A stretch of 36,939 nt of DNA, from the NCBI GenBank assembly GCA_004322205.1, contig SCSN01000004.1, forward strand, positions 1-36,939, given 5' to 3'. This DNA comes from Patescibacteria group bacterium (GTDB taxonomy: Bacteria > Patescibacteriota > Minisyncoccia > Phycocordibacterales > Zambryskibacteraceae). Both the position numbers and the translations under genes were made by a program. The notes below the pieces were generated by a model. That model saw nothing but the letters and a program-made list of their open reading frames with translations. It searched no databases and was not told the DNA's origin. Positions 26,850-36,939 of this stretch are shown one piece after another (positions within the stretch are counted from its first letter, which is position 1; each line of letters begins with the position of its first letter).

Positions 26850-29114
26850 ATGGCGGGAAAAGTTTTAATTGTTGAATCGCCGGCGAAAGCGAAGACAGTT
26901 TCAAAATATCTTGAAGGCGAGTATGAAGTGATCGCTAGTGTCGGTCATATCCGTGATCTGCCAAAAGGGAACAATGCCATCGACATCGAAGGCGGTTTCA
27001 TCCCTCACTATGAAATTGTCAAAGGTAAAGAAAAGGTAATAGAGAGCATCAAACGCCACGTTGCCAGAGCCGACGAAGTACTTCTTGCCACCGACCCCGA
27101 TCGCGAAGGAGAAGCAATTGCTTGGCACATCGCCCAAATCATCAAAGATGATTTGGGAAATTCAAAATCCCCTGCCCGTCCCCGCCTCGCCGGCAGGCAG
27201 GCGGCAGGCGGGAAAATTCAAAGCTCGAAAAGTAAGGGTCAAAAGATAAAGAGAATCACATATCACGAAATTACAAAAGAAGCTATTCAAGAAGCGCTGA
27301 AGCACCCACGTGACATAGATATAAATTTGAAAACAGCGCAAGAGGCCCGGAGAGTGCTTGATCGTTTGGTTGGCTATGACCTCTCGGGGCTTATCTGGAA
27401 GAAGGTGCGCTATGGATTATCCGCCGGCAGAGTGCAGTCCCCCGCCTTACGCATTCTTATGGAGCGGGAGCGCGAAATCCGCGCTTTCCTGCCGGAGGGA
27501 TTTTGGACGATCGCCGGGCAATTCAAAACCGAATCCGGCGACACCATTACCCTAACCTGTGAAGAAGAACCGCGTGACAAAAAAGAAGTTGATCGTATTG
27601 TTCGTGTCGGCAAGGCGAAACAGTGGTCAGTTGTTGATGTTAAGGAAACGGAAATAACGAGAGTTCCACGGGCGCCTTTCATTACCTCTACACTCCAGCA
27701 GGCCGCCAGTTCGCGGCTCGGTTTTTCACCCTCGCGCACTATGAGAATTGCCCAGCGGCTCTACGAAGCAGGGCTAATCACCTACATGCGAACGGATAGC
27801 ACAAGCTTAAGCGTCGCCGCTCAAAAGCACATTGCCGGGGTAATAGAGGAGAAGTTCGGAAAAGTAAATCTCTCCCCGCGAGTCTACAAAACCAAAAGCA
27901 AAACTGCCCAAGAGGCCCATGAAGCAATCCGCCCCACTGACGCTTCAAAGGAAGACGCCGGCGCAAACGAAGAGCAGAAGAAACTCTATAAGCTCATCTG
28001 GCAAAGGACAGTGGCCTCACAGATGGCAAATGCCAGAATTCTGCGCACCAAAGTCTCGGCAAACGTTACAAGCAAATCAATACCAGATTTTTCCGTCGTT
28101 GGTTCAAGAGTGCTCTTCGAAGGATGGCTCTCTGCAGACCCGCGAGCCAGACAGGAAGACATCGAACTTCCAAAACTTAAAGCGGGCGATCCGCTGACAC
28201 TTCTTTCTCTTGACTCCCAAGAGAAAGAAACGACCCCGCCACCGCGCTACTCCGAAGCCGGTCTCATCAAAGAGCTTGAAAAACGAGGCATCGGGCGCCC
28301 CTCGACATATGCCACTATCGTTGAGACGCTTGTGAACCGCGGTTATGTCACGAAAATTGAACGCTCACTCATGCCCACCGACACCGGCGATGTTGTCAGC
28401 TCGTTTCTGGAGAATAACTTCGCAAAGTACATCAGCGACTCCTTCACAGCCGAAATGGAAGACGAACTCGACGAGATTGCAGACGGCAAGCGTGAGTATG
28501 TTGCAACTTTGAAGAGTTTTTACGCGCCATTTTCCAAAGACGTTAAGGCTAAAGAAAAAATTGAAAAAATCACCACTTTGGGAGAGGCGGACAAAAAGTG
28601 GAAATGTCCAAAATGCGGGAGCGGTATGGTAATTAAACTCGGCCGCACCGGCAAATTCCTCTCCTGTGAGCGTTTCCCCGAATGCCACGGCGCGCGCACT
28701 ATTGACGGCGAGGCTCTCGATGGTCCCAAAGACACGGGTGAGGTTTGTCCTGAATGCGGCAAGGGTACGCTTGTTGAGCGCGACGGAAAATTCGGCAGAT
28801 TTATTGCCTGTTCCCGCTATCCCCGCTGCAAATACGTCAAACGAGACGAGGCAGAATTGGAAAAAATGAATACCGGAGTGAAATGCCCGCTCTGCGGCGA
28901 CGGTCTCATGATGGAACGGCGCGGGCGATACGGAGTGTTTTACTCGTGCAGCAATTATCCCAAATGCAAGAATGCCATAAAAGCAAAACCAACGGGACGC
29001 CTCTGCGACCTCTGCGGCTCGCTTATGATGCAAGGCACAAAGATCATACCAGAACGGTGCAGTAACAATAAATGTCTTAATTACAGACCAGATAAATTAG
29101 GCAAGCTGAAGTAG
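26850..29114 (+). CDS. topA: DNA topoisomerase I
   Basis: IVESPAKA, ATDPDREGEAI, SAGRVQS, ITYMRTDS, GIGRPSTY, C-terminal zinc ribbons. Confidence 0.98.
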   Translation: MAGKVLIVESPAKAKTVSKYLEGEYEVIASVGHIRDLPKGNNAIDIEGGFIPHYEIVKGKEKVIESIKRHVARADEVLLATDPDREGEAIAWHIAQIIKDDLGNSKSPARPRLAGRQAAGGKIQSSKSKGQKIKRITYHEITKEAIQEALKHPRDIDINLKTAQEARRVLDRLVGYDLSGLIWKKVRYGLSAGRVQSPALRILMEREREIRAFLPEGFWTIAGQFKTESGDTITLTCEEEPRDKKEVDRIVRVGKAKQWSVVDVKETEITRVPRAPFITSTLQQAASSRLGFSPSRTMRIAQRLYEAGLITYMRTDSTSLSVAAQKHIAGVIEEKFGKVNLSPRVYKTKSKTAQEAHEAIRPTDASKEDAGANEEQKKLYKLIWQRTVASQMANARILRTKVSANVTSKSIPDFSVVGSRVLFEGWLSADPRARQEDIELPKLKAGDPLTLLSLDSQEKETTPPPRYSEAGLIKELEKRGIGRPSTYATIVETLVNRGYVTKIERSLMPTDTGDVVSSFLENNFAKYISDSFTAEMEDELDEIADGKREYVATLKSFYAPFSKDVKAKEKIEKITTLGEADKKWKCPKCGSGMVIKLGRTGKFLSCERFPECHGARTIDGEALDGPKDTGEVCPECGKGTLVERDGKFGRFIACSRYPRCKYVKRDEAELEKMNTGVKCPLCGDGLMMERRGRYGVFYSCSNYPKCKNAIKAKPTGRLCDLCGSLMMQGTKIIPERCSNNKCLNYRPDKLGKLK

Positions 29115-32676: not shown

Positions 32677-33540
32677 ATGACAAATCTGAAGCAAAAAACA
32701 CGGAAGATCAGGGTCAAAGGGAGATGGGTTACCATAGTCGCAATGCTCTCTCTCCTTCCCCTCTCTTTCGCGCTGGCAGAGCTTCCCAGCAATGAAACCC
32801 CATACCCGGAAAAACTCTACGCCCAATGTTTTGACAGCAAAGACAATGACGGCGACGGAAAAATCGACCTCAAGGACGTTGACTGTCCTAAATGCGCTGA
32901 CGGTATTGATAACGACGGCGACGGCTTTATAGATCAAGCTGATTCTGATTGCCCGAAGAAAATCGGGTTCTGGAGGCAAGCGGCGGCGGCAGTTCTTGGC
33001 GTTGATACGACAGACGAAGGCACAGCTGGTGCGGGATTTCCTTCAGGCGGCACTGTTGCCGCCGGAGGCACGATTGCGGCAGGGGGTGCACCTTGCAGCG
33101 GACGTGTTGTTGTTTTCCAACGGAGAGTGAGGACTGCGACGAGCTTTTATCTTCAGCCGGTTTATACTACCTGCATTAATCAAGTTGACGCCGGAGGAGA
33201 AATTGGAACAATAGACGACCCTCGCGACGTACCTGTGGGGGGCGAAATTTCTGCAGGCGGCAGGACCGCGAGCAGTGAACGTATCCAAGCTGGCGGAACA
33301 GTCCCCGCTGGTGGAACAATTAGTAGCGGCGGAACAATTACTACGGGTGGTACTCTTCCTGGAGGTGGCACCGTCACTTCAGGGGGCAAGATTATCGCTG
33401 GAGGTGCGGTGGAAGTTAGTAGCTCGATTAATGTTGGCGGCAAGATTCAGGGTGGCGGAATAGTTGACGCCGCTAGCTCCGTCATTTCCGGAGGAAGAGT
33501 CTCTGCAGGCGGTTCTATCCCTGCAGGCGGAACTATATAA
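32677..33540 (+). CDS. Exported protein with two C-D--DNDGDG--D--D-DC Ca-binding-like repeats and a Gly-rich hexapeptide solenoid
   Basis: Signal/TM N-terminus; repeats visible in the translation; start 32677 preferred over 32653. Confidence 0.8.
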   Translation: MTNLKQKTRKIRVKGRWVTIVAMLSLLPLSFALAELPSNETPYPEKLYAQCFDSKDNDGDGKIDLKDVDCPKCADGIDNDGDGFIDQADSDCPKKIGFWRQAAAAVLGVDTTDEGTAGAGFPSGGTVAAGGTIAAGGAPCSGRVVVFQRRVRTATSFYLQPVYTTCINQVDAGGEIGTIDDPRDVPVGGEISAGGRTASSERIQAGGTVPAGGTISSGGTITTGGTLPGGGTVTSGGKIIAGGAVEVSSSINVGGKIQGGGIVDAASSVISGGRVSAGGSIPAGGTI

Positions 33541-33547
33541 TTGGGGA

Positions 33548-34465
33548 ATGAAAAAGAGACTCCTTGTTGTCATCGGGCCGACGACATCGGGCAAGAGCGC
33601 TTTAGCGGTGGCGCTTGCCAAAAAATTTTCCGGCGAAGTTGTATCTGCCGATTCACGCCAAGTCTACAAGGATCTTGATATCGGCACGGGAAAAATCACG
33701 AGAAAAGAAAAGGCAGGGATTCCTCATCACTGCCTCGACATTGCTAGTTCCAAGCGCCAGATTACCGTCGAAGAATACCGCAAGCATGCCGAAAAAGCGC
33801 TCGAAGAAATCTGGGCGCGCGGAAAACTCCCCATCATAATCGGCGGAACCGGATTTTACATCCAGGCTCTGGTTGATAAAGTAGTTTTTCCTCATGTCCC
33901 GCCGAATAAGATACTGCGCAAGAGATTAGAGAAGAAATCTGCGCAGGAACTTTTTTTAATACTCAAAAAACTGGATCCTGCCCGCGCCCGAACAATTGAA
34001 CCAAAGAATCCGCGCAGACTTATCCGCGCCATAGAAATCGCCAAGACATTAGGCAAAGTGCCGCAGTTAAAAAGACGAAAGAAAGAACTTGATGCACTTT
34101 TCATGGGTATAAAAATTTCCCCGCAGATTCTCAAGAAAAATATTGAAAGACGGGCAATAGAAAGACTGCGCCAAGGAATGATTGCCGAAGCACAAAGACT
34201 CCGAGCGAGAGGGCTTTCACTCAAGCGAATGCGCGAACTCGGTTTGGAATACCGATATTTGGCTGACTTCCTGCAGGACAAAATTTCAAAAAAAGAGCTC
34301 CGCCAGAAAATTATCAGCGGCAATTGGCAATATGCCAAACGCCAATTGCGCTGGTTCAACCGCGATAAAAGAATTAAATGGTTTGATATCTCCAAAAAAC
34401 AAGAAAGGAAGAAACTCGAGAGGTCGGTGAGAAAGTTTCTTGATATTGACACAATTCAGAAATAG
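33548..34465 (+). CDS. miaA: tRNA dimethylallyltransferase
   Basis: GPTTSGKS, SADSRQVY, DIGTGK, PHH, GGTGFY, YAKRQ--WF. Confidence 0.97.
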   Translation: MKKRLLVVIGPTTSGKSALAVALAKKFSGEVVSADSRQVYKDLDIGTGKITRKEKAGIPHHCLDIASSKRQITVEEYRKHAEKALEEIWARGKLPIIIGGTGFYIQALVDKVVFPHVPPNKILRKRLEKKSAQELFLILKKLDPARARTIEPKNPRRLIRAIEIAKTLGKVPQLKRRKKELDALFMGIKISPQILKKNIERRAIERLRQGMIAEAQRLRARGLSLKRMRELGLEYRYLADFLQDKISKKELRQKIISGNWQYAKRQLRWFNRDKRIKWFDISKKQERKKLERSVRKFLDIDTIQK

Positions 34466-34524: not shown

Positions 34525-34887
34525 ATGTCGAAGAGAGACGAGTTCTTTTGGGGTTCACTCTTGCTGTCCGCTGTCCTTTGGTTTATCACCTTGCTAAGCA
34601 CCAAATGGCCAGCCAATCTTGTTGCAACCTCGTTCCTCGGCATGCTAGCAACGATAAACACGGCGATATTCGCTTTCCTGCTCGGAGAAAGGTTGCTTCG
34701 CGGGAAGCCGAGGCTACGAAAGATTGCGGCAGGAGGTGCTTGGCTCGCAAGCGTTTTCGTTACGCTCGTCGGCTGGTTCAGAGGTAATACACTGGAGGTA
34801 GGTGTAGCTCTGATCTTCATGATCTGCCTTGTGGCTTTCGGCGCCGGACTTTTCGATTCAGAGAGTGAAAAAGCACCTGTGGTATAA
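34525..34887 (+). CDS. Small 4-TM membrane protein
   Basis: TTGACA(34446)-17-TATTCT promoter, SD AAGGGG, terminator 34901-34950. Confidence 0.8.
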   Translation: MSKRDEFFWGSLLLSAVLWFITLLSTKWPANLVATSFLGMLATINTAIFAFLLGERLLRGKPRLRKIAAGGAWLASVFVTLVGWFRGNTLEVGVALIFMICLVAFGAGLFDSESEKAPVV

Positions 34888-34986
34888 TTCCAGCATCCCC
34901 GCCCCGTGAGATAGCGCGCACGCGCGCCAACTCACGGGGCGGTTTTTCTTTGAGAAAAAATTTGATACGATTGTGTGCAAATATAA

Positions 34987-35022
34987 AGGTGGTTGGTTGA
35001 GTGGCATAACTTCGGCCTCCAA
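34987..35022 (+). pseudogene. tRNA-Trp(CCA) 5' half (layer A)
   Basis: AGGTGGT-TG-GTTG-AGTGGCA-TAAC-T-TCGGC-CTCCAA; no matching intact 3' half found. Confidence 0.6.
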
Positions 35023-35046
35023 CCCAGCACATTATTAGAGGTCAAT

Positions 35047-35219
35047 GGGAGCTTAGTTAAGTGGTATAACTGCTGTCTCTCCGCCTGCGTATGGGTCTAT
35101 AGTTCAACGGTAGAACGATGGTCTCCAAAACCATTAATCCAGGTTCAAGTCCTGGTGGACCCGCAAATTTCGGCGGGCAGGCAAAACAGCGGTCGGAGGT
35201 TCGATTCCTCCAGCTCCCG
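35047..35219 (+). tRNA. Split tRNA, probably Trp(CCA), with a 102-nt anticodon insertion (layer B; exons 35047-35079 and 35182-35219)
   Basis: GGGAGCT/AGCTCCC-G, GTTA/TAAC, GCTGT/ACAGC and GGAGG-TTCGATT-CCTCC all pair perfectly. Confidence 0.85.
35093..35163 (+). tRNA. tRNA-Trp(CCA), intact, nested in layer B (layer C)
   Basis: GGGTCTA/TGGACCC-G, GTTC/GAAC, ATGGT-CTCCAAA-ACCAT, CCAGG-TTCAAGT-CCTGG. Confidence 0.95.
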
Positions 35220-35288
35220 CTAGAATGTGCTGGGCGAGTCCTGGTGGGCCCGCAAATATTAAACCCCGCCGTATGGCTGGGTTCAATG

Positions 35289-35447
35289 TTATTTCTTTGC
35301 CTCCTTGTGAAGAGTGCGCTTTCTGCAAAATCTGCAGTACTTCTTGAGCTCGATTTTTCGCTCGACTTTCTTCTTATTTTTGCTTGTCCAATAGTTAATC
35401 CGCTTACAGTTCGAGCATACAAGTTTTATAAGATTTTCTTGAGACAT
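35289..35447 (-). CDS. rpmG: 50S ribosomal protein L33 (zinc-binding form)
   Basis: Manual translation MSQENLIKLVCSNCKRINYWTSKNKKKVERKIELKKYCRFCRKRTLHKEAKK; below the ORF-track length cutoff. Confidence 0.96.
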   Translation of the reverse strand: MSQENLIKLVCSNCKRINYWTSKNKKKVERKIELKKYCRFCRKRTLHKEAKK

Positions 35448-36738: not shown

Positions 36739-36939
36739 CCCGACGCATAGCTCTAAGACTCGTTATGCGTCGGGAGGGATTCGAATCTTACAGATTCTGT
36801 ACACCTTTCGCATTCCGCTTCGCGGAATATGCTCAAGGTCTTCTCATCCCTCACGCGAGCGAAGCGGTTCGCTCGCTCCGACGCATTTTTCACTTCGTTT
36901 CAAAATGCAGTATTCTTGAATTAGTCCGAACCCATTTCG
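36739..36939. mobile_element. Palindromic element with a tRNA-3'-end mimic followed by tail copy 4 (36903-36938, KCSILELVRTHF, cut by the window edge)
   Basis: Minus strand TTCGAATCCCTCCCGACGCA; ATGCGTCGG/CCGACGCAT inverted repeats; nested hairpins. Confidence 0.6.

What the first reader, a model, noticed from the sequence alone, without database searches (positions are those of the whole stretch)
34987..35257. Third layer of the Russian doll: another Trp 5' half and an 11-bp inverted repeat enclosing both inner tRNAs
Seen: 34987-35022 is a tRNA 5' half ending TCGGC-CT-CCA-A (position 37). It is directly followed by CCCAGCACATT (35023-35033), whose exact complement AATGTGCTGGG (35224-35234) closes around layers B and C. 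Then comes AGTCCTGGTGGGCCCGCAAAT, a near-direct repeat of the layer C 3' end (AGTCCTGGTGGACCCGCAAAT). Inference: repeated cycles of anticodon-loop insertion followed by arrival of a replacement tRNA-Trp, that is, serial tRNA turnover at one locus, possibly driven by integrating elements or anticodon nucleases.
Basis: partly seen in the sequence, partly recalled or inferred. Interest (0 to 1): 0.8.

Follow-up and report, generated by a model that had tools for sequence, protein, structure and literature searches.

The report
Nested scars of tRNA-Trp gene replacement
Remains of at least four tryptophan-tRNA genes lie nested at one spot in a tiny groundwater bacterium's genome, apparently because small mobile DNA cassettes repeatedly broke the resident gene and brought their own replacement copy.

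Summary
34987-35022 is the 5' half of a tRNA-Trp: it matches intact tRNA-Trp genes of relatives at 29-31 of 36 positions, though no covariance-model hit was found. The 11-bp inverted repeat is exact. The 21-nt copy of the tRNA 3' end differs by one base. Two samples carry the arrangement without differences, one at about 170x.

New findings:
- The inverted repeat is not chance. It belongs to a family of repeat-bounded cassettes, 8 in this genome, and one of them holds exactly a small GIY-YIG nuclease gene.
- The intact tRNA sits between the arms of a second palindrome family, inserted between C34 and C35 of an otherwise perfect tRNA-Trp.
- The 3' copy is not the partner of the outer 5' half. 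It comes from a fourth tRNA-Trp.
- In relatives the conserved miaA/rpmG locus holds two tRNA-Trp classes, in either orientation. Six loci have 5' halves, and three have a GIY-YIG gene beside the tRNA.
- The promoter-like motif stays upstream of the outermost scar.

Best reading: scars of serial insertion into the resident gene, each bringing a replacement tRNA. A GIY-YIG driver is inferred, not shown. This is a new variant of a known kind. Interest 0.6.

The parts
34963..34971 (+). TGATACGAT, an extended -10-like motif 15 nt upstream of the outermost tRNA scar. It is the likely promoter of the whole array.
   Evidence: The motif TGnTAnnAT lies 8-21 nt upstream of the intact tRNA-Trp in 22 of 37 relatives' loci without a 5' remnant. 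It is within 25 nt of the intact tRNA in 0 of 7 loci with 5' remnants. In 5 of those 7 it sits 10-15 nt upstream of the outermost remnant. The generic sigma-70 scan found no + strand site.
34987..35022 (+). Layer A: orphan 5' half (positions 1-37) of an A/B-class tRNA-Trp. It has no 3' partner.
   Evidence: 29-31 of 36 matches to intact tRNA-Trp of 12 relatives; 89% to L030. No Rfam hit. It departs from the conserved TTAGTTAAGTGG at two positions.
35023..35234 (+). Cassette bounded by inverted repeats (arms 35023-35033 and 35224-35234). Its cargo is tRNA-Trp B, which itself holds C.
   Evidence: Exact 11-bp inverted repeat. Same CCCAGCAC/GTGCTGGG core, and the same CAA left flank as two other copies (C15 90558-90803 and C13 35792-35887). 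Seven other pairs exist in G000, and C15 90558-90803 encloses exactly a GIY-YIG ORF. The family is present in 5 of 61 genomes; the reversed-pattern control gave 0.
35047..35079 (+). Layer B, 5' half of a tRNA-Trp, ending ...GCTGT-CT-C (C34).
   Evidence: 97% to L018 positions 1-33. In relatives this half is directly followed by the 3' half.
35080..35181 (+). 102-nt insert in the anticodon loop of B: arm (T)CCGCCTGCG, TAT, tRNA-Trp C, AATTTC, arm GGCGGGCAGG.
   Evidence: The junction 35079|35182 is fixed by relatives in which the halves are adjacent and by aragorn on the joined halves. The arm pair recurs at C5 13737-13786 and C14 117734-117762. The 9-mer occurs 25 times against 5.1 expected, and the 10-mer 15 times against 1.3 expected.
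35093..35164 (+). Layer C: intact tRNA-Trp(CCA), the only tRNA-Trp gene found in the genome.
   Evidence: ARAGORN; Rfam RF00005 at 70.7 bits.
35182..35220 (+). Layer B, 3' half (C35 to discriminator G at 35219, plus C).
   Evidence: 90% to L026 positions 34-72. All four stems of B pair perfectly when the halves are joined (read; aragorn tRNA-Trp).
35235..35257 (+). Scar D: copy of the T-loop-to-3'-end (from C56) of a C-class tRNA-Trp.
   Evidence: 19/19 to positions 54-72 of the G033 tRNA-Trp; 20/21 to 35148-35168. The same kind of 3' copy, with the same start point, lies downstream of tRNA-Trp in 11 of 43 relatives' loci.

Best explanation
The interval is a stack of non-functional scars around one working gene.

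Proposed history:
- The locus between miaA and rpmG originally held an A/B-class tRNA-Trp behind its own promoter (TGATACGAT, 34963-34971).
- A small promoter-less cassette bounded by the inverted repeat CCCAGCAC.../...GTGCTGGG entered that gene in the anticodon loop. It carried tRNA-Trp B.
- Later a second small piece, bounded by the arms of another palindrome family, entered B exactly between C34 and C35. It carried tRNA-Trp C.
- Only C is intact.
- The downstream copy of a tRNA 3' end (D) is a separate scar from yet another tRNA-Trp.

How it works now (inferred): transcription from the old promoter reads through the two dead 5' halves. Ordinary tRNA end-processing then releases C.

How the insertions happen (inferred, about 40% confidence within this explanation): small GIY-YIG endonucleases cut tRNA genes in their loops, and repair copies in a cassette. 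These nucleases are multi-copy in this lineage. One of them sits inside a cassette with the same ends in this very genome.

Shown: the anatomy, the family membership of both pairs of arms, the homology of each scar, and the turnover pattern in relatives. Not shown: any cleavage, any movement, or the order of events.
For: Anatomy and homology
- B's two halves are directly adjacent, forming an intact tRNA-Trp, in many relatives. When joined at 35079|35182 they give a 72-nt tRNA-Trp(CCA).
- Low-depth contigs in run X2 carry an uninterrupted close variant of B...GCTGTCTC|CAAAACAGCGG.
- A matches intact tRNA-Trp of relatives at 29-31 of 36.

Element families
- There are 8 CCCAGCAC...GTGCTGGG pairs in G000. 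One (246 nt) encloses exactly a GIY-YIG ORF, and ours encloses B.
- The pattern occurs in 5 of 61 genomes, with 0 hits for the reversed control.
- The arms around C recur 3 times in G000.

Lineage pattern
- In 36 of 36 loci where both flanking genes were seen, tRNA-Trp lies between convergent miaA and rpmG.
- Its orientation is the same as miaA in 24 loci and opposite in 18. Both orientations occur in both tRNA classes.
- 4 of the 5 genera with two or more loci hold both classes.
- 5' halves lie upstream of the intact gene in 6 of 43 relatives' loci. In G028, G011 and G049 the half is of a different class or type from the intact gene. G028 has three layers.
- A GIY-YIG ORF (Pfam E 2.7e-16 and 5.2e-15) lies between the 5' half and the intact tRNA-Trp in G028 and G017, and directly upstream of it in G030.
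- The layout '5' remnant, GIY-YIG, intact tRNA' also occurs for Ser (two genomes), Lys and Gln.
- Of 31 small GIY-YIG genes, 15 have perfect flanking inverted repeats of 12-19 bp, against 0 of 417 shifted control windows.
- 11 of those 31 lie within 400 nt of a tRNA, against 5.2% expected (P=2.5e-7, kin not independent).

Promoter and fold
- The promoter-like motif stays in front of the outermost scar.
- The RNA fold of 34980-35262 is a fully nested set of stems (z = -3.4).

Precedent
- The phage GIY-YIG enzyme SegB cuts inside tRNA genes and co-localises with them (PMC13096335, passages read).
Against: - There is no GIY-YIG ORF at this locus. The three small GIY-YIG genes of G000 lie on other contigs.
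- Ours is the only one of the 8 cassettes in this genome that carries a tRNA. The relatives were searched only for cassettes with a 70-100 nt interior.
- A and D cannot be the two ends of one gene, so at least one further unobserved event (deletion or recombination) is needed.
- In 6 of the 7 other copies the right flank of the cassette is a conserved stretch of about 45 nt. That stretch is absent here.
- No filled-versus-empty polymorphism of the cassettes was seen. The uninterrupted B variants in X2 have a different upstream context and no inverted repeat (tables 7 and 8).
- The remnants beside GIY-YIG genes for Ser, Lys and Gln are of the same type as the intact tRNA. That fits local duplication as well as import.
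- Neither A nor the B halves reach any Rfam score.
Confidence: 0.7

Rival explanations
1. Tyrosine-integrase scars. Larger integrative elements used the anticodon loop and the T loop of tRNA-Trp as attachment sites. They were later deleted almost completely, leaving att-like duplications and imported tRNA pieces.
For: The break points fall in the anticodon loop (A, B; G013 and G049 in relatives) and in the T loop (D, and 11 of 43 relatives). These are the classic integrase sublocations (Williams 2002, recalled, not read). An archaeal case with a tRNA 5' fragment, a 1.8-kb recombinase element and a replacement tRNA is in print (PMC3293823, abstract read). G000 has one tyrosine recombinase gene (C5 96885-97403).
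Against: No integrase gene lies next to tRNA-Trp in any of the 44 loci examined with our query set; only miaA, rpmG and GIY-YIG were searched for. The inserted pieces are 102 and 212 nt and end in palindrome arms of repeat families rather than in random deletion ends. Where a gene does lie between remnant and tRNA it is GIY-YIG. An integrase attP normally restores the gene with a partial copy, whereas here whole tRNAs are brought in.
Confidence: 0.15
2. Local duplication and decay without mobile elements. Slippage or unequal recombination made tandem partial copies of tRNA-Trp, and these then diverged.
For: G002 has tandem [spacer + 5' half] units in front of its tRNA-Trp. The remnants next to GIY-YIG genes for Ser, Lys and Gln are identical to the adjacent tRNA's own 5' end.
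Against: A, B, C and D are of different sequence classes that are each intact in other genomes. B is split cleanly by an insert, not truncated. The inserts are bounded by arms of repeat families found elsewhere in the genome.
Confidence: 0.08
3. A working nested or split tRNA. B (and perhaps A) is a real gene whose 'intron' contains another tRNA. The inverted repeats bring the halves together for splicing, as in archaeal split tRNAs.
For: B's four stems are all intact, and the predicted RNA fold pairs both sets of arms and keeps all cloverleaf stems. B shows a compensatory change in the anticodon stem relative to relatives: GCTGT/ACAGC against GCGGT/ACCGC.
Against: No tRNA-splicing endonuclease (PF01974) and no RtcB ligase (PF01139) were found in a genome that is 100% complete by markers. 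A has no 3' half. In G049 a B-type 5' half broken at the same place has no 3' half. None of the 43 relatives' loci shares the nested arrangement. The break 34|35 lies inside the anticodon.
Confidence: 0.03
4. Assembly chimera or chance similarity.
For: This is a metagenome-assembled genome. tRNA-like pieces attract mis-joins, and an 11-bp inverted repeat arises in 3% of shuffled regions.
Against: Zero-difference contigs cover it in two samples, one at about 170x, and they bridge every junction. The inverted-repeat core is shared with 7 other pairs.
Confidence: 0.02

Closest known systems
tRNA gene fragments left by integrating elements (Caldiarchaeum tRNA-Thr: PMC3293823, abstract read; Thermococcaceae survey: PMC9897764, abstract read)
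   Same: A 5' fragment of a tRNA lies upstream of a complete replacement tRNA, with foreign DNA between them. Fragments mark past insertions.
   Different: Those cases are archaeal, with kb-sized elements that encode a recombinase. Here a bacterium has ORF-less inserts of 102 and 212 nt that end in palindrome arms. There are three nested layers, and whole tRNAs serve as cargo.
Free-standing GIY-YIG homing endonuclease SegB of T-even phages (PMC13096335, passages read; Brok-Volchanskaya 2008, seen only as a reference)
   Same: A GIY-YIG nuclease gene sits next to tRNA genes. The enzyme cuts inside tRNA genes (motif RAWTSGAAC), and break repair rearranges and duplicates the tRNA region.
   Different: SegB is a phage protein with a DNA-binding part (size recalled, not checked here). 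The genes here encode about 85-90 aa, the catalytic domain only. They are chromosomal and multi-copy (up to 9 per 0.6-Mb genome) and are often bounded by perfect inverted repeats of 12-19 bp. No cleavage data exist, and none lies at the window's locus.
REPIN/MITE-type palindromic repeats (recalled from general knowledge, no paper read here)
   Same: Short non-coding units with conserved inverted arms and a less conserved interior of about 70 nt, in several copies per genome.
   Different: No RAYT/Y1 transposase in G000 (0 hits). One copy encloses a GIY-YIG ORF and one a tRNA. The insertion sites lie in tRNA loops.
Archaeal split and intron-containing tRNAs (recalled)
   Same: tRNA halves are separated by other sequence and flanked by complementary stretches.
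   Different: No splicing endonuclease or RtcB. The outer half has no partner. The break lies within the anticodon.

Membership tests
tRNA (Rfam RF00005) | Covariance-model score at or above the gathering threshold | tested here: met
   Met only for C: 35093-35163, 70.7 bits against 29.
tRNA (Rfam RF00005) | Model hit for the outer 5' half 34987-35022 and for the B halves as they lie | tested here: not met
   No hit at E<=10 in 34900-35320 other than C. ARAGORN with introns allowed also finds only C.
tRNA-Trp pseudogene halves | Sequence homology to intact tRNA-Trp genes, with the halves contiguous elsewhere | tested here: met
   A: 29-31 of 36. B5' 97% and B3' 90%, and the two are adjacent in relatives. 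Joined B gives tRNA-Trp by ARAGORN.
Integrase att-site duplication in a tRNA gene | Direct repeat running from a loop of the tRNA to its 3' end | tested here: met
   D: 20/21 to C's 3' end and 19/19 to G033 positions 54-72.
Integrase att-site duplication in a tRNA gene | Integrase gene within or beside the inserted DNA | tested here: not met
   No ORF of that kind between 34887 and 35289. The single PF00589 match in G000 is on contig C5.
CCCAGCAC inverted-repeat cassette family | Terminal inverted repeat with core CCCAGCAC/GTGCTGGG, in several copies | tested here: met
   8 pairs in G000 including ours. 5 of 61 genomes, control 0.
CCCAGCAC inverted-repeat cassette family | Conserved right flank TGA(A/T)GATTTT...CATG | tested here: not met
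   Present in 6 of the 7 other copies. In ours the right flank is scar D.
Free-standing GIY-YIG homing endonuclease cassette (SegB-like) | GIY-YIG ORF at the locus | tested here: not met
   None in the window's tRNA-Trp locus. Present beside tRNA-Trp in 3 of 43 relatives' loci.
Free-standing GIY-YIG homing endonuclease cassette (SegB-like) | Co-localisation of the nuclease genes with tRNA genes | tested here: met
   11 of 31 genes lie within 400 nt of a tRNA, against 5.2% expected. The loci were chosen by similarity to a tRNA-adjacent query, and kin are not independent.
Free-standing GIY-YIG homing endonuclease cassette (SegB-like) | Cleavage of the cassette-free target and copying by repair | not testable with these tools
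   Needs enzyme assays or strain polymorphism data.
REPIN/RAYT system | A Y1 (RAYT) transposase in the genome | tested here: not met
   PF01797: 0 matches in G000; the control rings in 6 of 14 known genomes.
Spliced or split tRNA (archaeal type) | Splicing endonuclease and RNA ligase present | tested here: not met
   PF01974: 0. PF01139: 0.

The most novel reading that the evidence does not exclude
These ultra-small bacteria carry a minimal selfish element: a GIY-YIG nuclease gene of about 250 nt, or an ORF-less derivative, bounded by perfect inverted repeats. It homes into the single-stranded loops of tRNA genes and uses the victim's promoter. Some copies carry a complete replacement tRNA. 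The host then loses its own gene and depends on the invader's copy, which is gene replacement acting as an addiction mechanism. Repeated rounds give the nested 'Russian doll'. They also explain why the tRNA-Trp class and orientation at a conserved locus differ between species of one genus.
Probability: 0.3. Interest if true: 0.8.

Novelty: new variant of a known kind. Interest (0 to 1): 0.6.

Why it matters
tRNA genes are usually regarded as the most stable genes in a genome, and as passive landing sites where the invader restores the gene end it displaces. Here the only tRNA-Trp of a 0.67-Mb genome is itself imported cargo. It sits inside two generations of dead predecessors and is apparently still driven by the promoter of the oldest one.

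If the link to the small GIY-YIG nucleases holds, it would have three consequences:
- It would give a function to a very abundant, unexplained gene family of Patescibacteria: present in 48 of the 61 genomes searched, with up to 9 copies each.
- It would provide a cellular counterpart to the phage SegB-tRNA association.
- It would offer a mechanism for horizontal replacement of essential RNA genes.

There is also a practical point. Such fragments mislead tRNA annotation and break assemblies. Two contigs of this genome end in a tRNA-Tyr scar.

Tried and rejected
- ARAGORN with introns of 0-300 nt and lowered thresholds: only C, plus spurious calls.
- Generic sigma-70 scan: no + strand promoter. 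A lineage-specific motif was found by comparison instead.
- The direct repeat GCAAATAT(A/T)AA at 34977-34987 and 35252-35262. By my estimate about one such 10-of-11 match is expected by chance in a 551-nt region, so I treat it as chance.
- The third copy of GTGGTATAA... at 34879-34903: 68-76% identity, inside the end of an ORF. Not taken as a fourth tRNA half.
- Model R1 of the tRNA-downstream element: no match at D (best in 35133-35226 is E 0.4-0.9). D therefore cannot be assigned to that element here.
- Metagenome scan with MiaA. The closest relative is only 57% identical. Seven more miaA/tRNA-Trp/rpmG loci were found, none with remnants. No genus-level relative was available to order the events.
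- RNA evidence: no RNA holder was listed for this stretch. All runs laid are contigs, so starts, ends and expression cannot be read.
- A G014 stretch that resembles A plus CCCA (28 of 36) lies inside a sulfatase-like ORF of at least 479 aa (open at one end). G000 has no homologue. I reject it as the source of A, because A fits tRNA-Trp better (31 of 36).
- Literature searches found no paper on GIY-YIG cassettes or nested tRNA remnants in Patescibacteria. Supplements are closed and were not seen. Only abstracts or passages of four papers were read.
- No structure prediction, complex prediction or large protein search was used.

Full report
**What is there**

The window is a whole 36.9-kb contig of a 667-kb, 18-contig genome. 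After miaA (33464-34465), a small membrane-protein ORF and a strong hairpin (34899-34942), the + strand reads as follows:
- a 36-nt tRNA 5' half, A (34987-35022)
- CCCAGCACATT (35023-35033), then 13 nt
- the 5' half of a second tRNA, B (35047-35079, ending GCTGT-CT-C)
- a 102-nt insert (35080-35181) that contains a complete tRNA-Trp, C (35093-35164)
- the 3' half of B (35182-35220), then 3 nt
- AATGTGCTGGG (35224-35234)
- a copy of a tRNA 3' end, D (35235-35257)

rpmG follows on the other strand (35289-35447).

C is the only tRNA-Trp that ARAGORN finds in the genome. It scores 70.7 bits with Rfam.

**Check of the observation**

The inverted repeat is exact, and the 21-nt direct repeat has one mismatch. 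The covariance model sees neither A nor the halves of B, so I tested them by homology.

A BLAST of 34960-35290 against 60 relatives showed the following:
- B's 5' half (query 88-120) and 3' half (query 223-261) lie directly adjacent in many genomes, for example G007, G010, G015, G017 and G041. This fixes the junction at 35079|35182, that is between C34 and C35 of a CCA anticodon.
- Joining the halves at that junction in a script gives a 72-nt tRNA-Trp. All four of its stems pair perfectly (read).
- A matches the first 36 nt of intact tRNA-Trp genes at 29-31 of 36 in the 12 best relatives.
- D is 19/19 identical to positions 54-72 of the tRNA-Trp of G033.

A and D are not two ends of one gene. 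AGGTGGT and TGGGCCC pair at only 3 of 7 positions, and they belong to the two different tRNA-Trp classes seen in the lineage. At least four tRNA-Trp genes have therefore left sequence here.

The arrangement is not an assembly error. One contig in run X1 and three overlapping contigs at about 170x in run X2 cover every junction with no difference. X2 also holds low-depth contigs in which a close variant of B is uninterrupted.

**The inverted repeat is the end of a repeat family**

Taken alone, an 11-bp inverted repeat occurs in 31 of 1000 shuffled regions. While looking at the three small GIY-YIG genes of this genome, I saw that one of them (C15 90573-90791) is enclosed by CCCAGCACTTAC...GTAAGTGCTGGG. 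The left arm abuts its ATG and the right arm abuts its stop.

A genome-wide scan found eight CCCAGCAC...GTGCTGGG pairs closer than 1.5 kb:
- five of 94-105 nt with unrelated AT-rich interiors
- one of 176 nt
- the 246-nt one holding the GIY-YIG ORF
- ours of 212 nt holding B

Ours shares 11 nt (CAACCCAGCAC) with the GIY-YIG copy on the left. The 70-100-nt form occurs in 5 of 61 genomes, scattered over different families, with no hit for the reversed control.

The 102-nt insert around C has the same logic. Its ends, (T)CCGCCTGCG and GGCGGGCAGG, are the arms of a second GC-rich palindrome. That palindrome recurs as a 29-nt hairpin on C14 and, enclosing another palindrome, on C5. Both inner layers are therefore 'a tRNA between the arms of a palindromic repeat'. 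The predicted RNA fold of the whole interval is a perfectly nested set of stems.

**The locus in relatives**

I examined 44 loci with an intact tRNA-Trp: ours and 43 relatives.
- In all 36 where both flanking genes were seen, the tRNA lies between convergent miaA and rpmG.
- The tRNA points either way (24 against 18). It belongs to either of two classes, and four of the five genera with two or more loci hold both classes.
- Six relatives have tRNA-Trp 5' halves upstream of the intact gene, broken at positions 32-37 of the anticodon loop.
  - G049 breaks after C34, as B does.
  - G028 has three layers, with halves of both classes.
  - G002 has tandem halves.
- In G028 and G017 an 87-90-aa GIY-YIG ORF (Pfam E 2.7e-16 and 5.2e-15) lies between the half and the intact tRNA. 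In G030 it lies directly upstream of the tRNA.
- Eleven relatives have a copy of tRNA positions 54-72 lying 117-214 nt downstream.

**The nuclease genes**

- Small GIY-YIG genes occur in 48 of 61 genomes, up to nine per genome. Some carry internal stops.
- Of the 31 in fetched loci, 15 are bracketed by perfect inverted repeats of 12-19 bp, against none of 417 shifted control windows.
- 11 of the 31 lie within 400 nt of a tRNA, against 5.2% expected. The loci were picked by similarity to a tRNA-adjacent query, and relatives are not independent.
- The layout '5' remnant with GC hairpin(s), GIY-YIG ORF, intact tRNA' recurs for tRNA-Ser in two genomes, for tRNA-Lys and for tRNA-Gln.
- G000 has no Y1 transposase, one tyrosine recombinase on another contig, and no tRNA-splicing endonuclease or RtcB.

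**Promoter**

A motif TGnTAnnAT lies 8-21 nt upstream of the intact tRNA-Trp in 22 of 37 loci without 5' remnants. The background expectation is 0.006 per window.

In all 7 loci with 5' remnants it is missing from that place. In 5 of those 7 it lies 10-15 nt upstream of the outermost remnant. In ours it is TGATACGAT at 34963-34971.

This fits insertion of promoter-less DNA into a resident gene, and read-through transcription of the scars.

**Explanation**

I read the interval as scars of serial insertion into the resident tRNA-Trp gene, each insert bringing a replacement tRNA. A is the oldest: it lies next to the promoter and has changes at otherwise conserved D-arm positions. B is next: it is still perfect, and an uninterrupted variant exists in the same aquifer. 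C is the current gene.

D is a separate T-loop scar of a type common in the lineage. Joining A's end and D's start to the two ends of one cassette needs at least one further unseen event.

The GIY-YIG nucleases are the best candidates for the driver. The grounds are association in relatives and the shared cassette ends in this genome. There is also a precedent: phage SegB cuts inside tRNA genes and travels with them (PMC13096335, passages read). No cleavage or movement has been shown.

Rivals are listed with their weights: integrase scars, local duplication, a spliced nested tRNA, and artefact.

**Comparison and novelty**

tRNA fragments left by integrating elements are known (PMC3293823 and PMC9897764, abstracts read). 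GIY-YIG nucleases linked to tRNA genes are known in phages.

What appears unreported, in four full-text searches (supplements not available), is:
- a bacterial locus with three nested generations
- whole tRNAs as cargo between palindrome arms
- a lineage-wide link of minimal, repeat-bounded GIY-YIG genes with tRNA remnants

I rate this a new variant of a known kind.

Noticed in passing
G000 C1 12084-12204; C5 1023-1124; C6 37647-37751 (-); relatives L008, L033, L037, L038, L043, L045 and others: A conserved structured element of about 110 nt lies directly downstream of tRNA genes. It is a three-way junction of 30 pairs, 19 of them with compensatory changes. Its closing helix is formed by a copy of the tRNA's last 19 nt (from C56) and a degenerate inverted copy that co-varies with the tRNA (Trp classes, Asp). 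There is no Rfam match. My model R1 finds 16 places in 77 loci and 4 in G000, two of which are not next to a tRNA. Its function is unknown.
   Followed up: partly
window 36763-36868 (-), 36765-36785 (-): A copy of the last 21 nt of tRNA-Tyr, preceded by a variant of the same downstream element (R1, E 0.2). The end of this contig overlaps the end of contig C16 just after its tRNA-Tyr. The two contigs therefore probably join there, and the assembly broke at the repeat.
   Followed up: partly
G000 C7 8952-8980; C6 11022-11047; C1 12184-12202: Other tRNA scars in the same genome: a tRNA-Ile(TAT) 5' half broken after position 37, about 80 nt upstream of the intact gene; a tRNA-Gly-like 5' piece upstream of tRNA-Gly(CCC); and a tRNA-Asp 3' copy.
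   Followed up: partly
G000 C3 1288-1330, C6 45022-45065, C13 9776-9818, C15 (flanks of 88253 and 90558), C5 flanks of 93717-93920: In 6 of the 7 other CCCAGCAC cassettes, and beside a GIY-YIG gene with different repeat arms, the right flank is a conserved stretch of about 45 nt (TGA(A/T)GATTTT..TCGCTTCGCTCA..AAAATCATTCATG). It runs into the start codon of the next gene. It could be a target site or part of the element; this is unexplained.
   Followed up: no
L169 (G014 C7 9023-9064): A stretch 28/36 identical to the outer tRNA half plus CCCA lies inside a sulfatase-like ORF of at least 479 aa (open at one end), coding ...FWVGDRSYANYPNTF.... It is either chance or an old tRNA-derived insertion in a coding gene.
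   Followed up: partly
L052 (G036 C23, locus 1483-1568): ARAGORN calls an 86-nt tRNA with a CCA anticodon and a long extra arm. This is unlike the other 43 tRNA-Trp genes, and it is not at the miaA/rpmG locus.
   Followed up: no
L029 (G002 C6), L030 (G011), L157 (G022), L168 (G010), L050: GC-rich perfect palindromes (for example CCTGCCTGCCGGCAGGCAGG and CCCCGTCGCTCGCGAGCGACGGGG) sit precisely inside loops or stems of tRNA remnants: the anticodon loop, T loop or D region. In G000 they are nested within each other (C5 13737-13786; window 27170-27215).
   Followed up: partly
window 34880-34888: TGGTATAAT, a perfect extended -10-like motif, lies at the very end of the ORF 34525-34887, just before the terminator-like hairpin 34899-34942.
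   Followed up: no
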